64,000 nt of DNA from the NCBI GenBank assembly GCA_951406725.2, contig OX597822.1:39804001-39868000 (forward strand). Reading direction: 5' to 3'. This stretch comes from Octopus vulgaris. Its lineage: Eukaryota. The notes below the pieces were generated by a model. The model searched no databases, was not told the origin of the DNA, and was given only the letters and a program-made list of their open reading frames with translations. Below are positions 2,050 through 45,850 of the stretch, piece after piece (the first letter of the stretch is position 1; the number at the start of each line of letters is the position of its first letter). The position numbers and the translations under genes were made by a program.

Positions 2050-2240
2050 AAAAGGGAAAAAAAGGAGAAAAAGAGACAAGAAAAAAATAACAGCGCGAGG
2101 ACGTGGTACAGTAAGACGCTCAGGAAATGAAAGAAAAGTTGTTTTACGTTTCGAACAAAGCCTTTTTCAGAAACAGAAAACAGGAAAGGTCAAAAGAAAA
2201 GGAAAGCGAAGGAAGAAAATCGCCAACAATCCACTTGTAG
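2050..2240 (-). mobile_element. Penelope-like terminal-repeat fragment with degenerate hammerhead motif (2141-2174)
   Basis: Same repeat family as 4575-4750 and 45500-45850. Minus strand gttt CTGAAAA aggctttgttc GAAA CG TA aaac. Confidence 0.55.
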
Positions 2241-2334
2241 TTACATTTTGGAATGACCGGAAGTAGATGGACAAAGAGAAATTGCTTTGTAAGAAAGGAG
2301 AGTGTAAAGAAAGGTTGGTATCTTTTTGTATGCT

Positions 2335-3435
2335 TGATTGTGTGCGCGCGTGTGTGTGTGTGTGATAGCATGTGTGTATGTGTGTGTATATGTTAGAGTG
2401 TTTGTATATATTGTAGCGTGTATGTGTGTGCCAGTGTATGCCTGTGGTGGTAACTGTGTGTGTATGTGTGTGTGGTGTGTGTGTGACATTAACTGTTATA
2501 TGTGTATGTGTGAGTGATTTTTGTCTCTGTTAATGTCGAAGGGGTCAACTTGTGTGATAACAGGTGTGGTTGTTTTTGTGTAACTGTGTGGTTTTGCACA
2601 TGAGCGTAGCAGGGAAGGTCAACAACAGGGTGCTTAAGAGGCAATCTATAGGGTGTGTGAACGGGTGGGTATGGATATGAGTGCATGTATGTGTGTGTGT
2701 ATTGGTATGTGTATGTAGACGGAGTAGGAATGTGTGTATGTGGATATGTGTATGGGTGCGTGTGTGTCCCATTTTCTATGTCACTCTGTCTCTGTCTGTC
2801 TCTGTCTCTCAGTATCTCTCTCTGTATGTGTGTGTGTGTGTTCGTGTGTGGTGCGTGTGGGGATATGCGTGTTTATGTGAGAGATTATGGAAGTGTATGT
2901 ATGAGTGTGTATGTGTGTGTGTGCGTGTGTATGCATGTGTGCGTGTGCGGAATGTGTGTGTATGTGCGTGTGAATGAGTGTGGAATTGTATGGAAGTGTG
3001 TGCATACAATTCCACACTTACTCACACGTATGTAAGTGTGTGCATCTATGTGTGTTTTGTGTGTGTGGTGTGCGTGCGTGTGTGCGCGCGTGTGTGTGTG
3101 GTCGTTTATGTGTGAATGTGTGTACGGGGCTGTGTGTTGAGGCATATGTGCGTTCCTGTGAGTGTGCGCGTATGTATGCGTGCGTGTGTGCGTGCACGTG
3201 TGTGTGTGTGTGTGCGTTTATGTGCGTGTGTACATGTGCGTATGTGTATGCATCTGTGTGTATGTGTGTGCATGTATGTGTGTGTTGTGTGTGTGTGATG
3301 TAAATGGGAAGTATATCTGCGTTCATGGGTGCGCGTGCGTGTATGTGCGCGTGTATGTACGCGTGCGTGCGTGTAAGTATGCTTGTGTATGTATGTGTTC
3401 GTGTATGTATGTGTATGTGTGTGCGTTTGTGTATA
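2335..3435. repeat. Degenerate (TG)n/(TGTA)n low-complexity tract
   Basis: Directly visible. It accounts for the VCVC/THTH pseudo-ORFs. Confidence 0.95.
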
Positions 3436-4155
3436 TAAAAATAAAATAATAAAATAGATAAAAATAATAGAGAACACTAGAGAAAAACTACAAGATAAAA
3501 TATAATAAATATTACAAAAATGCAAAATAATAAATAAAAATAATAAAAACATACAAGATAAAAAATAAAAAAATTCAAAGATAGAAAATAGAAATTAATA
3601 CACTGATGAAAAAAATGATAAAAAGAGGATAAGTTAAAATAAAAGGATCAAAATAAACAAGTAGAATGGAAAAAAAGCGATAAAAATGATACAAAATCGA
3701 TAGTAAGCGAGTAAAAGTTATGAAAAAGTAAGTGAATATAAGATAGGATAAAATGTTATTGTAGAGAGAGTCATAGAGAGGCGGTGGTTGTGTTGAGTCC
3801 GAAAGGAATTTGTGTTTTTAGAGTGAAAATGTAACGCTGTTCCAGGCGGAGTCGAAACATACATACACACACACACACACACACACACACACACACACAC
3901 ACATATATATATATATATATATATATACAATACAAAATGGGGCAAGAACGCAAAACATTCAAATAGACGACACAAAAAACATGGAAGGGTCATTCGAAGC
4001 CTCTAATCTTCAGTCAAGAAGAGAGAGAGAGAGAGAGAGAGAGAGAGAGAGAGAGGGAGAGAGAGACAGACAGAGAGAGAGAGACAGAGAAGACAAAAAC
4101 AGATAACAAAGCCAAGGCTGTGTGTTGTCAGGATATTTATAAGGAGAGAGATATA

Positions 4156-4200
4156 GTCTTACAGCTGTTTCTGGGATATGGATATCCCTTCATCAGAGAC
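4156..4200 (-). ncRNA. Type I hammerhead ribozyme-like motif
   Basis: Minus strand gtct-CTGATGA-a-gggatat cc atatccc-a-GAAA-cagctg-TA-agac: stem I gtct/agac, full core, stem II hairpin, palindromic stem III and a GUA triplet. A.A mismatch at the base of stem II. Confidence 0.75.
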
Positions 4201-4236
4201 GATGTCAGAAAGGTAAATATTATTTCGAACTCTCTC

Positions 4237-4284
4237 GTTTCTGATGAAGGGATATCCATAATATTCTAGAAACATCTGTAAGAC
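4237..4284 (+). ncRNA. Hammerhead ribozyme-like motif (inverted, more diverged partner of 4156-4200)
   Basis: gttt-CTGATGA-a-gggata tccataa tattct-a-GAAA-catctg-TA-agac. Confidence 0.65.
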
Positions 4285-4574
4285 TATATATCACTCCTTA
4301 TAAATGTCCAGAAAACTTCTCACAGCCTTGGCTTTGTTATCTCTTTTTTTCTAACATATATACATGCAGGATAATACAAGATCCACATTAGAGTCCTCAT
4401 TCGTATCACGATCGAATCAAGGATTCAACTATGGTCTGTCCTTAGCAATTACTTGGCATTACCTGCCTCTCTTTGAGTTTTCTAGATACCAATACTTGCC
4501 ATACTCTCACTATATATATATATATATATATATATATATATATATATATATATATATATATATATATATATAGT

Positions 4575-43066: not shown

Positions 43067-43312
43067 AGCTGGCAGGATCGTTAGCACGCCTGGCGAAAAA
43101 TTTAGCTGTATTTCGTCTGTCTTTACGTTCTGAGTTCAAATTCCGCCGAGGTGGACTTTGCCTTTCATCCTTTCGAGGGCGATAAATTATCGACTGGTAC
43201 CCTCCTCAAAAATTTCGGTCCTTGTACCCAGAGTTGAAAAGAATATTTAGGCGGCAAGCTGGCAGAAACGTTAGCACGCCGAGCAAAATGCTTAGCAGTC
43301 TTTCGTCTGTCT
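43067..43312 (+). mobile_element. SINE family B monomer plus partial second head
   Basis: Family B match. Confidence 0.88.
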
Positions 43313-43772
43313 ATATGATTGAATAAATCTAGCATTATTTGAGAAAGATTTAGCTGTTATTTTCAACAACACAAACTTCTATTGATTCGGTTCGAGTTTA
43401 TTCAATCAGTCGGTGTTAATAGTCTCCCCTGAGAGCGACGGACGTTGAAGCACGGGTTCGAGCACTGCCTAAGACGTCGTAGGAAATATATCGTACTACG
43501 ATTTATTGTTGCTGTTTAGTCCAAGTTCAGTTCTGATACAGTTGAATTACGATCAAATGTTTTCCTGTCGTGACCATTCCATCTATTCTGGAACTGTGTT
43601 GTTCGATGTAGTCTACATTTCGTTGAGGATTTTGGGTTTCTTTTCTGAGCGGTTTTACTGTTATATTAGTTTGTCCTATAGGGGAATCCTCGCTTTATAA
43701 ACTCTCATACCCATGGTTTCTAAACGGAAATATTTCCATAACTTCTTCGTCTCCTTAATCAGCTTTATTGTA

Positions 43773-44455
43773 TTGGGTTAGTGTATAATTATTGCGGCGT
43801 TTTTTCAACAAATTTTATAGGCGTAGGAGTGACTGTGTGGTAAGTAATTTACTTACGAACCACATGGTTCAGGGTTCAGTCCCACTGCGTGGGACCTTGC
43901 GCGAGTGTCTTCTACTATAGCCTCGGGCCGACCAAAGCCTTGTGAGTGGATTTGGTAGACGGAAACTGAAAGAAGCCTGTCGTATATATGTATATATATA
44001 TATATATATATATATATATATATATATGTATGTGTGTGTATATGTTTGTGTGTCTGTGTTTGTTCCCCCAACACCGCTTGACAATCGATGCTGGTGTGTT
44101 TACGTCCCCGTAACTTAGCTGTTCGGCATAAGAGACCGATAGAATAAGTACTAGGCTTAGAAAGAATAAGTCTGGGGTCGATTTGCTCGACTAAAGTCGG
44201 TGCTCCAGCATGGCCACAATCAAATGACCGAAACAAGTAAAAGAGTAAGAGTAACAAAAACAATAACATTATGTAGCAAAAACATGTTTAAATGATTATT
44301 CCGGAGCATATTCACCATCTACTTCAATTACTGTTTCCCATTTATTTGGCATATGGCCAGATTGTCATTTAAAGATGTTTTTGTTAAATATTATCATTGT
44401 TTTTGTTGAATAAAACTTATTGAAAATAAGCCGCAATAATTATGCACCAACCCAA
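43773..44455. mobile_element. Mariner-type MITE carrying a nested family A SINE
   Basis: ~45 bp inverted ends ttgggttagtgtataattattgcggcg / gccgcaataattatgcaccaacccaa with TA on each side. Resembles the Hsmar1-type TIR TTAGGTTGGTGCAAAAGTAATTGCGG. Confidence 0.85.
43817..44253 (+). mobile_element. SINE family A, full length
   Basis: Family A match. Confidence 0.93.
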
Positions 44456-45029
44456 TATGAAAGCTATTTTCTTTTTTTGTACATAACCGTTTAGCTTTCA
44501 CTTGTTCTAGTCATTACACAGTAGCCATGCTGGAGCACCACCTAGAAAGGTTTAAGAGTTTATTCGAACACTTCGACCCCAGTTATTAGTTGATATTTTT
44601 TAAAGCCAGGTACTTATTCTCTCGGTCTTTTTTCCGACTGATAAGTCACAGGAATGAAAATAAACGAACATCGGTTGTCAAGCGGTGGTAGGTAATACAG
44701 TACAAATGCGCGAACACATACACACACGCACACATATGCACGCATGCACACACACACATATGCACGCATGCAAACACACATATGCACGCATGCTCACACA
44801 CACTTAGATGTGTGTGCATGTATGTATATATTTATGTATATATATATATGTATATATGTATGTATATATAAATATATATATATATGCATACATATATATA
44901 TGTATATATCTATATCTATCTATCTATCTATCAATATATATATATATATATATATATATGTGTGTGTGTGTATGTGTGTATATATATATATATATATATA
45001 TATATATATATATATATATATATATATAT

Positions 45030-45415
45030 AGGCTCAGGAGTGGCTGTCTGGTAAGTAGCTTGCTAACCAACCACATGGTTCCGGGTTCAGTCTCACTGCG
45101 TGGCATCTTGGGCAAGTGTCTTCTGCTATAGCCCCGGGCCGACCAATGCCTCGTGAGTGGATTTGGTAGACGGAAACTGAAAGAAGCCTGTCGTATATAT
45201 ATATATATATATATACATAAGTGTGTGTGTATGTGTTTGTCCCCCCTAGCATTGCTTGACAACCGATGCTGGTGTGTTTACGTCCCCGTCACTTAGTTGT
45301 TCGGCAAACCAGACCGATAGAATAAGTACTGGGCTTACAAAGAATAAATCCCGGGGTTGAATTTGCTCGACTAAAGGCGGTGCTCCAACATGACCGCAGT
45401 CAACTGACTGAAACA
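45030..45415 (+). mobile_element. SINE family A, full length
   Basis: Family A match. Confidence 0.93.
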
Positions 45416-45499
45416 TTTAAAATATATATATATATATGTATATATATATATATATATATATATATATATATATATATATATATATATATATATATATAT

Positions 45500-45850
45500 A
45501 TAGTGAGAATTTACCAAAAACAATAGACGAAGACGGGTGTGTAAACAACAAACAGATGTATTAGTTTAACGCTCGGGAAGTGAGACAGACTTTTACGTTT
45601 CGAGCCTACGCTCTTCGGCAGAAAGAAACACAGAAATAAACAAGGAGAGAAAATTGAAAAAAGGGTTAGTGGCTAACGGACATTAAAAATAACAATAAGA
45701 AACGATAAGAGAACGTGCACATGGAATGTATTTGTTTGATGTACGGTAAAAAGAGAGTTTTTGACGTTTCTAGCATAAATCTTCGTCGGAAAGAAAAACA
45801 GAATAAGCTAAAGAAGGAAAAACAATCGCCAACAACACGTGTGTTGTTAC
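45500..45850 (-). mobile_element. Penelope-like terminal repeat with two tandem hammerhead-like motifs (45590-45625, 45759-45792)
   Basis: cttt CTGCCGA a gagc gtag gctc GAAA CG TA aaag and ttt CCGACGA agatttatgcta GAAA CG TC aaa. Confidence 0.6.

What the first reader, a model, noticed from the sequence alone, without database searches (positions are those of the whole stretch)
2141..45792. About nine dispersed minimal hammerhead-ribozyme motifs in several unrelated short repeats
Seen: CUGANGA-stem II-GAAA-short palindromic stem III-UH with a closing stem I at 4156-4200(-), 4237-4284(+) and 5572-5678(+). Variant or decayed versions lie at 2141-2174(-), 4663-4697(-), 24117-24155(+), ~27485-27540(-), 45590-45625(-) and 45759-45792(-). 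Stem II sequences differ completely (gggatat/atatccc, gagc/gctc, ggag/ctcc, gatacaac/gttgtatt) while the core is kept, so the conservation is structural. Established: Penelope-like elements and retrozymes carry such minimal type I hammerheads. Inference: this genome hosts several non-autonomous ribozyme-bearing retroelement families at high density, possibly uncatalogued.
Basis: partly seen in the sequence, partly recalled or inferred. Interest (0 to 1): 0.75.

Follow-up and report, generated by a model that had tools for sequence, protein, structure and literature searches.

The report
Altered-core hammerheads in young Penelope retrotransposons
Most of these motifs are the scattered tail ends of Penelope-type jumping genes, long known to carry a small hammerhead RNA, but the most abundant young family here has a fixed change in a normally invariant core letter, which likely weakens self-cutting and suggests the element can spread without cutting well.

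Summary
Eight of nine sites are real minimal type I hammerhead (HHR) motifs or decayed copies; 27485 is unsupported. They are not nine independent motifs. Four belong to one Neptune-type Penelope-like element (PLE) superfamily, two are the arms of one inverted insertion, one is a second Hydra-type PLE, and one is a broken retrozyme-like copy. Upstream PLE coding sequence was found for four of five families, so most are 5'-truncated PLE ends rather than separate non-autonomous families. Only one window copy has a canonical core and intact stems. Density (about 1 per 35 kb) is the genome's norm. All this is a known kind (Cervera 2014). New: of 33,253 exact motif copies in the Neptune superfamily only 4,830 have the canonical core; about 60% carry A6U and about 21% U4C. 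A young family with intact ORFs has A6U in 19 of 19 pLTRs. U6 stays fixed while the free positions 7 and 17 vary. Cleavage is untested and likely attenuated. The scan has many earlier PLE-hammerhead notes, including other core variants in this genome; none matched A6U/U4C by words or sequence. Lunse 2017 could not be read.

The parts
2041..3857 (-). 3' fragment (about 1.8 kb) of a Neptune-type PLE, lineage A: last endonuclease codons (3771-3857), simple-repeat-rich 3' UTR, decayed HHR at 2141-2174, end in (TA)n
   Evidence: Frame at 3857-3771 reads like the PLE endonuclease end; 10 of 30 genomic homologs of 3735-3858 carry an A-type HHR downstream on the same strand and match the intact PLE protein. 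Continuity across the simple repeats is inferred.
2141..2174 (-). decayed minimal HHR (G8A, eroded stem II), canonical-core subfamily of lineage A
4095..4202 (-). left arm of an inverted family-B insertion (Hydra-type PLE 3' end); intact canonical HHR at 4156-4200 with an extra A on both sides of stem II and a 6-nt palindrome
4225..4350 (+). right arm of the same family-B insertion; HHR at 4237-4284, palindrome broken
4573..4750 (-). young lineage-A copy ending in (TA)n; HHR at 4663-4697 with the family's U4C core
   Evidence: C at position 4 in 30 of 30 top copies (96-100% identical; chosen by likeness to this copy)
5461..5730 (+). family-D copy (second Hydra-type PLE 3' end); HHR at 5572-5678 with a stem II of about 75 nt, stem I broken in this copy
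   Evidence: canonical core in 15 of 20 copies
24034..24290 (.). family-E inverted fragment (arms 24034-24115 minus, 24116-24290 plus); HHR remnant at 24117-24155 lacks the 5' strand of stem I
27485..27540 (-). unsupported site: CUGACGA without a GAAA box in register, single copy
45502..45680 (-). lineage-C copy (Neptune-type PLE 3' end) ending in (TA)n; HHR at 45590-45625; family core A6U, this copy A6C
   Evidence: (U6 in 20 of 25 copies, C in 4, A in 1)
45745..45850 (-). decayed lineage-A copy; HHR remnant at 45759-45792

Best explanation
Seven of the nine sites are 3' ends of Penelope-like retrotransposons with a minimal hammerhead motif near the tip, and the dominant young family carries a fixed A6U core change that likely weakens self-cleavage without stopping its spread. 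Shown: the motifs sit 55-100 nt before a shared 3' end in simple repeats, downstream of PLE RT/GIY-YIG sequence, and twice (once per pLTR) in intact elements. Inferred from PLE biology: the element's endonuclease nicks (TA)n targets, reverse transcription starts at the RNA 3' end and usually stops early or inverts, which scatters tens of thousands of solo and palindromic HHR fragments, most of them dead. Inferred mechanism for the variants: every genomic copy spans the cleavage site, so its template was uncut (or re-joined) there; a slow ribozyme leaves more usable template, so A6U and U4C are tolerated or favoured, while the fold is still kept for slow, dimer- and protein-assisted cleavage or for binding the element's protein. 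The eighth site (family E) is likely a decayed retrozyme-like relative.
For: PLE linkage. Intact young family: 10 fetched copies (picked for long open frames) 96.5-99.2% identical to L184, pLTRs 99.8% alike in L184, RVT_1 above its Pfam cut-off and a weak GIY-YIG hit; HHR with A6U in 19 of 19 pLTRs. Genome counts: 33,253 exact motifs with positions 4, 6, 7 free, 4,830 canonical, 0 for the reversed controls. In 10 loci picked by RT likeness alone, U6 is in 10 of 10 while position 7 is A4/U3/C2/G1 and position 17 is A8/U1; identity to the young copy is 92.7% in the HHR against 62.5% and 72.2% in the flanks. Stem I outer pair switches G-C to C-G between lineages. Natural A6U copies are predicted to pair the core with the palindrome (P 0.53-0.98 against 0.10 in canonical sisters). 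Literature: CUGA mutants show low activity (PMC9901934); in an Anolis PLE, HHR-dead mutants insert normally in vitro and cleavage needs the protein (PMC11167929).
Against: No cleavage was measured, and no RNA ends could be mapped (only contigs were available). I found no measurement of A6U itself; the expected loss is extrapolated from A6C and pooled CUGA mutants. The flanks used for comparison are low-complexity and indel-rich, which inflates the contrast. The covariation is one event between two lineages. Canonical-core subfamilies of the same superfamily also reached thousands of copies, so attenuation is not required. Copy numbers of lineages can differ for reasons unrelated to the HHR. 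Folding does not separate U4C from canonical lineage-A copies. Clades were assigned by motifs, not by a tree with reference elements.
Confidence: 0.7

Rival explanations
1. The A6U and U4C motifs are fully working ribozymes in vivo, rescued by dimerisation, the PLE protein or another metal ion.
For: Position 7 and 17 vary and everything else is kept, as expected under selection for catalysis. A6C hammerheads cleave well with Mn2+ (PMC7151607). A viroid U4C variant is weak in vitro yet sufficient in vivo (PMC3088659). U4C is also the majority core in unrelated family E (16 of 23 exact copies). A PLE HHR is protein-assisted (PMC11167929).
Against: CUGA changes other than the C3-G8 swap gave low activity (PMC9901934). 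A6U is predicted to lock the core into an alternative helix. The young family also has U at position 17 and only a 4-nt palindrome.
Confidence: 0.25
2. The variant motifs are catalytically dead relics, and the segment is conserved for another job (pLTR promoter or splice signal, or a protein-binding site read as DNA or linear RNA).
For: The segment lies in the pLTR just upstream of the next ORF, where PLE promoters are reported (PMC6765202). HHR cleavage is dispensable for insertion in vitro (PMC11167929); Naiads proliferate without canonical HHRs (PMC8557442).
Against: The positions that vary (7, 17, loop II) and the compensatory stem I pair follow hammerhead rules, not those of a linear motif.
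Confidence: 0.2
3. One reading: several independent non-autonomous ribozyme retroelements (retrozyme- or SINE-like).
For: Family E has a 328-344 nt circularly permuted unit and 6-bp/4-bp stems. All held U4C copies are short, about 190 nt, with no ORF.
Against: Families A, B, C and D extend, with staggered 5' ends, into PLE coding sequence. Family E forms inverted pairs in 12 of 35 distinct loci and same-strand repeats in 1, not long tandem arrays.
Confidence: 0.15
4. Chance matches in an AT-rich, repeat-rich genome.
For: Fits only 27485 and single loose hits at 40283 and 1242.
Against: Shuffles, reversed-pattern controls of 0, and hundreds to thousands of homologous candidates per family.
Confidence: 0.02

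Closest known systems
Minimal type I hammerheads of metazoan PLEs (Cervera and de la Pena 2014, PMC4209133; main text parts 1-2 of 4 and supplement 2 part 2 of 3 read, supplement 2 text searched)
   Same: Short stem I, unpaired base between A9 and G10.1, G10.1-C11.1 pair, palindromic stem III, U-rich 5' flank, pLTR location, mostly solo copies, some inverted pairs, many families per genome.
   Different: The representatives I saw there have CUGANGA or U3 variants, and no cephalopod; here A6U and U4C cores are fixed and outnumber canonical ones about 5 to 1 in the Neptune superfamily. Family B has a second extra A before GAAA (one AGAAA entry is visible in their alignment). Family D has a stem II of about 75 nt.
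Neptune-clade PLEs (as defined in Craig et al. 2021, PMC8557442; passages and section 11 read)
   Same: [quoted passage not shown]
   Different: Non-canonical HHR core in the young family; long simple-repeat 3' UTR. Not placed on a tree with reference elements.
Hydra-clade PLEs (Craig et al. 2021, section 11)
   Same: Families B and D: CxCX5C linker, CxxC and CxH (decayed) around the conserved E and N, (TA)n ends, canonical HHR core.
   Different: Only decayed endonuclease remains were recovered; the RT motifs RWK and DKT were not seen because no RT was recovered.
Non-LTR retrozymes (Cervera and de la Pena 2020, PMC7229834, parts 2-3 of 6 read, supplement not readable; Li et al. 2026 preprint 10.64898/2026.07.22.740005, part 1 of 5 read)
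   Same: Family E: unit of about 340 nt, circular permutation, type I HHR with 6-bp stem I and 4-bp stem II.
   Different: Old (73-91% identity to the window copy), U4C majority core, dispersed or inverted rather than in long tandem arrays; circular RNA not tested.
Natural hammerhead core variants A6C (phage Bcep176) and U4C (viroid) (Perreault 2011, PMC3088659, section 8 and passages; PMC7151607, passages)
   Same: Same core positions changed; activity reduced but not nil.
   Different: Those are rare single cases; here the changes are fixed in lineages with thousands of copies, and the base at 6 is U.

Membership tests
Minimal type I HHR of metazoan PLEs | C3UGANGA9 core | tested here: not met
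   Met in families B (26 of 34 exact) and D (15 of 20) and in 4,830 Neptune-superfamily copies; not met in the young C family (A6U, 19 of 19), the young A subfamily (U4C) or family E (U4C, 16 of 23).
Minimal type I HHR of metazoan PLEs | G12AAA box, U16.1-H17 site, G10.1-C11.1 pair and stem II | tested here: met
   Family level; lost by decay in several window copies.
Minimal type I HHR of metazoan PLEs | short palindromic stem III and 3-6 bp stem I | tested here: met
   4-nt palindrome in A/C, 8-nt in B and D (D with wobbles), 10-nt in E; stem I 95.8% paired in 18 rows, one compensatory pair.
Minimal type I HHR of metazoan PLEs | located in pLTRs flanking an RT/GIY-YIG ORF | tested here: met
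   Both pLTRs in 9 of 10 intact loci, one in the tenth; downstream of endonuclease remains for A, B, D. Not found for E.
Minimal type I HHR of metazoan PLEs | self-cleavage as a dimer | not testable with these tools
   Needs in vitro assay or end-mapping reads.
Neptune-clade PLE (lineages A, C) | RT with DKG followed by C-terminal GIY-YIG | tested here: met
   RVT_1 E 1.1e-7 (32.2 bits, cut-off 29.6); GIY-YIG E 0.005 (17.6 bits, below cut-off 22.6) but motif visible.
Neptune-clade PLE (lineages A, C) | CX2-5CxxC linker and CCHH motif | tested here: met
   Read by eye in the L184/L186 protein and in lineage-A remains.
Neptune-clade PLE (lineages A, C) | phylogenetic placement with Neptune rather than Nematis references | not tested
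   No reference proteins were fetched.
Hydra-clade PLE (families B, D) | CxCX5C linker; CxxC and CxH around E and N; no CCHH | tested here: met
   Read by eye in decayed frames of L260, L266, L276 and L093, L094, L104/L127.
Hydra-clade PLE (families B, D) | RT with RWK and DKT motifs | not tested
   No copy reaching the RT was recovered.
Non-LTR retrozyme (family E) | 150-450 nt non-coding unit with a type I HHR | tested here: met
   328 and 344 nt in L237 and L114; same segment found up- or downstream of the core.
Non-LTR retrozyme (family E) | head-to-tail tandem arrays | tested here: inconclusive
   1 of 35 distinct loci has same-strand repeats (164-nt spacing); 12 of 35 have inverted pairs.
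Non-LTR retrozyme (family E) | expressed as circular RNA | not testable with these tools
   No run search was made for family E.

The most novel reading that the evidence does not exclude
A young, probably still active Penelope-like retrotransposon family has fixed a hammerhead core change (A6U) that should cripple catalysis yet keeps the fold under selection: either the first widespread natural A6U ribozyme, switched on by the element's protein or a metal ion, or a hammerhead turned into a non-catalytic RNA element. With canonical, A6U and U4C sisters in one genome, it is a natural experiment on what PLE hammerheads are for.
Probability: 0.4. Interest if true: 0.65.

Novelty: new variant of a known kind. 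Interest (0 to 1): 0.42.

Why it matters
The role of hammerheads in Penelope-like elements is an open question: they are near-universal in canonical PLEs, cleave poorly in vitro, and are dispensable for insertion in the one reconstituted system. This genome offers matched natural sisters that differ at one core base, and an intact young element to test them in. It also shows that searches demanding CUGANGA miss about 85% of the exact copies in the main superfamily here, so published counts may be low. The plain observation, PLE hammerheads scattered through an animal genome, is expected.

Tried and rejected
Rfam: no hammerhead in the listed matches; the models do not fit these minimal motifs, so this is no evidence either way. 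A strict descriptor without the extra base after A9 found only 24120 and a loose hit at 40283. Sequencing runs: no holder on record as RNA was listed; 8 of the 22 listed runs were laid, all contigs, so RNA ends, strand and cleavage cannot be read. The absence of another letter at position 6 in those tables is uninformative, since the known variation at position 7 is not listed either. One contig of organism code B matches 6715-6951 of L186 with no substitution (record 25), so U6 exists there. Idea that U4C and A6U stabilise the same inactive helix: rejected for U4C (pair probability 0.01). Idea that canonical lineage-A copies are CpG decay of U4C: rejected (own flanks and tree position); for family E the 6 canonical of 23 may be such decay. 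Idea that the 4156/4237 pair forms an active dimer: rejected, the two motifs are on opposite strands. Pfam gave no relevant hit on four decayed fragments; PDB sequence search gave 0 hits. Diverged PLE RTs in L215/L287 and L090/L288 were not partners of the nearby motifs as far as seen. L172 was dropped from the conservation count as a spurious 16-nt match; L164 and L178 do not reach the HHR. Literature: searches found no report of A6U or of cephalopod PLE hammerheads. Lunse et al. 2017 (about 150,000 PLE variants, recalled) and Arkhipova et al. 2017 are not held, and the supplement of PMC7229834 and file 1 of PMC4209133 could not be read; any of them may already show these cores.
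Full report
Setting. The window is G000:C9:39804001-39868000 of a 2.8-Gb genome in 227 contigs. It is dominated by simple repeats and has no PLE ORF of 100 aa or more that I recognised. The repeat content and size look octopus-like; this is my inference and was not looked up.

Observation. A descriptor (core with at most one mismatch, G10.1-C11.1, stem II of 4 bp or more, palindromic stem III, UH, stem I of 3 bp or more), written after I had seen the motifs, finds 3 window sites against 0 in 100 of 100 local dinucleotide shuffles. 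In 45 stretches of 10 kb taken at round coordinates it finds 13 distinct sites in 449,955 bases; for the first 30 stretches, 10 sites against a shuffle mean of 0.2. That is about 1 per 35 kb, or roughly 80,000 structure-intact motifs in the genome (my extrapolation; Poisson range about 43,000-138,000), so the window is not enriched. Site 27485 has no GAAA box in register and no second copy and is not confirmed.

Families. Genome searches gave 845 (A, 4663), 1,980 (B, 4237), 2,008 (C, 45590), 523 (D, 5572) and 538 (E, 24117) first-look candidates, 40 scored each; these are lower bounds. Sites 2141, 4663, 45759 (lineage A) and 45590 (lineage C) share one motif and flanks. Sites 4156 and 4237 are the two arms of one inverted family-B insertion, an arrangement seen in other B loci too. 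Copies share a 3' end at a simple repeat a fixed distance after the cleavage site: 93-102 nt in 25 of 28 A copies, 91-101 nt in 16 of 24 C copies, 53-64 nt in 29 of 35 B copies. Their 5' ends are staggered. This is the pattern of 5'-truncated retrotransposition.

Link to Penelope-like elements. Lineage C: two long copies run into decayed RT and GIY-YIG sequence. That RT piece has 6,314 candidates, many in open frames of 600-1,200 aa. Ten such loci, picked for long frames, are a young family: 96.5-99.2% identical to L184 over 4-6 kb, a unit of about 4.5 kb, pLTRs on both sides (99.8% alike over 1,580 nt in L184), RVT_1 above its Pfam cut-off and a sub-threshold GIY-YIG hit, and a CX4CxxC linker as described for Neptune/Nematis (PMC8557442). 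Lineage A: the window itself holds the last endonuclease codons at 3857-3771(-), 1.6 kb upstream of site 2141; 10 of 30 homologs of that piece have an A-type HHR downstream on the same strand. Family B: extending upstream reached endonuclease remains with a CxCX5C linker and CxxC/CxH motifs; L276 holds both these and the HHR, and 20 of 30 upstream-matched loci have the HHR downstream. Family D has the same kind of endonuclease upstream in 3 long copies. These motifs define the Hydra clade in PMC8557442 (section 11). Family E has no linked ORF that I found; it has 6-bp and 4-bp stems, a 328-344 nt circularly permuted unit, inverted pairs in 12 of 35 distinct loci and same-strand repeats in 1, and looks like a decayed non-LTR retrozyme.

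All 19 HHRs in the ten intact elements read CUGUUGA, that is A6U. An exact pattern for the A/C motif with positions 4, 6 and 7 free has 33,253 matches; the canonical-core version has 4,830; reversed controls have 0. Among the first 100 listed (all from the first 5.1 Mb of C1, counted by eye) 60 are A6U, 21 U4C, 14 canonical, 3 A6C, 1 U4A and 1 double; the 14 agrees with the whole-genome 14.5%. In loci chosen by RT likeness alone, 10 of 30 cover the HHR: U6 in 10 of 10, position 7 A4/U3/C2/G1, position 17 A8/U1. Identity to the young copy is 329 of 355 cells in the HHR, 467 of 747 upstream and 485 of 672 downstream (L172 dropped as spurious; the flanks are low-complexity). The outer pair of stem I is G-C in 7 and C-G in 6 of 18 distinct rows, one event between lineages. 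A tree of 141 copies with the variable core positions masked separates A from C, nests U4C as a terminal group among canonical A subfamilies, and puts canonical CUGAUGA copies near the base of C with weak support, so one or two origins of A6U cannot be told apart. Family E independently has C4 in 16 of 23 exact copies. Families B and D are canonical.

How it likely works. From PLE biology (PMC4209133, PMC6765202 passages, PMC11167929 passages): a transcript from the upstream pLTR carries an HHR in each pLTR; two copies could pair through the palindrome and cleave; the ORF protein nicks (TA)n DNA and reverse-transcribes from the RNA 3' end; early stops and inversions leave short solo and palindromic fragments. 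Shown here: the geometry, the ends and the linkage. Inferred: since every copy spans the cleavage site, its template was uncut or re-joined there. In the Anolis system HHR-dead mutants insert normally, unprocessed RNA is the main substrate, and cleavage needs the protein (PMC11167929). CUGA mutants other than the C3-G8 swap had low activity (PMC9901934 passages); natural A6C is slow in Mg2+ but fast in Mn2+ (PMC3088659, PMC7151607); viroid U4C is weak in vitro but sufficient in vivo (PMC3088659). Folding natural copies, A6U pairs the core with the palindrome (P 0.53-0.98 against 0.10 in canonical sisters), and the open-core form has P 0.003-0.005 in the CUGUUGA copies against 0.10; U4C shows no such difference. 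I therefore favour slowed cleavage that is tolerated or favoured, with the fold kept for residual or protein-assisted cleavage or for protein binding. I am about 0.9 sure of the PLE identity and about 0.55 sure of attenuation with retained function.

Against. No activity data; sequencing runs were contigs only. Canonical sisters also amplified, some recently (nearest-neighbour identities up to 98%). Lineage success need not depend on the HHR.

What is known. Minimal HHRs in PLE pLTRs and as thousands of solo copies are published for many animals, including the molluscs Lottia and Crassostrea (PMC4209133 and its supplement 2, part 2). A 2026 Octopus vulgaris repeat annotation lists 31 recently active PLE families and has no occurrence of 'ribozyme' or 'hammerhead' in its main text (PMC13282606, part 1 of 3 read and text searched); whether G000 is that species I did not determine. 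Searches found no A6U hammerhead and no cephalopod PLE hammerhead. Lunse 2017, Arkhipova 2017 and two supplements could not be read and may hold such cases. Earlier notes of this scan: 3,470 mention hammerhead and Penelope; this genome has notes on permuted hammerheads and a G3:C8 swap; none matched A6U/U4C by words or by sequence. I did not test those notes.

Verdict. The finding as written is a real but expected instance of PLE hammerheads, with fewer independent families than claimed. The fixed A6U core in a young intact family, dominant in copy number and conserved in hammerhead fashion, is a variant I could not find described and makes an open question testable. Interest 0.42.

Noticed in passing
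window 49120-49239 (-): 5S rRNA-like sequence, 91.1 bits against a gathering score of 38; gene, pseudogene or SINE head not determined.
   Followed up: no
window 28449-29808 (+): Broken non-LTR retrotransposon RT (RVT_1 E 4.8e-14).
   Followed up: partly
window 37217-38734 (-) and 61891-62220 (-): Broken LINE RT and C-terminal pieces (RVT_1 E 1.6e-20 for 37622-38734); the second piece resembles the first by eye.
   Followed up: partly
window 41047-41358 (+): Frame resembling a pogo/Tigger-type DDE transposase by eye (recalled); no Pfam hit at E 0.01.
   Followed up: partly
L013, L054, L036, L186, L189, L298, L074, L286, L200, L219, L288: At least six further canonical-core type I HHR families, most with 6-nt palindromes and long stem II inserts; one is an inverted pair in L200.
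   Followed up: no
L287:1103-2849 (+), L288:1217-2578 (-): Diverged PLE RT/EN remains at 26-29% identity to the young family, so further PLE lineages exist.
   Followed up: partly
L012, L017, L028, L029, L142, L216, L336: HHR-bearing ends of different PLE families often lie next to or inside each other in the same (TA)n tract, as at window 45502-45850.
   Followed up: no
window 15588-16082 and 33307-33575: Short tandem arrays of 185-nt (2.6 copies) and 147-nt (1.8 copies) SINE-like units.
   Followed up: no
L184:2740-6384: In intact copies the ORF stays open well past the endonuclease end into a Pro/Ser/Leu-rich simple-repeat tail of varying length.
   Followed up: no
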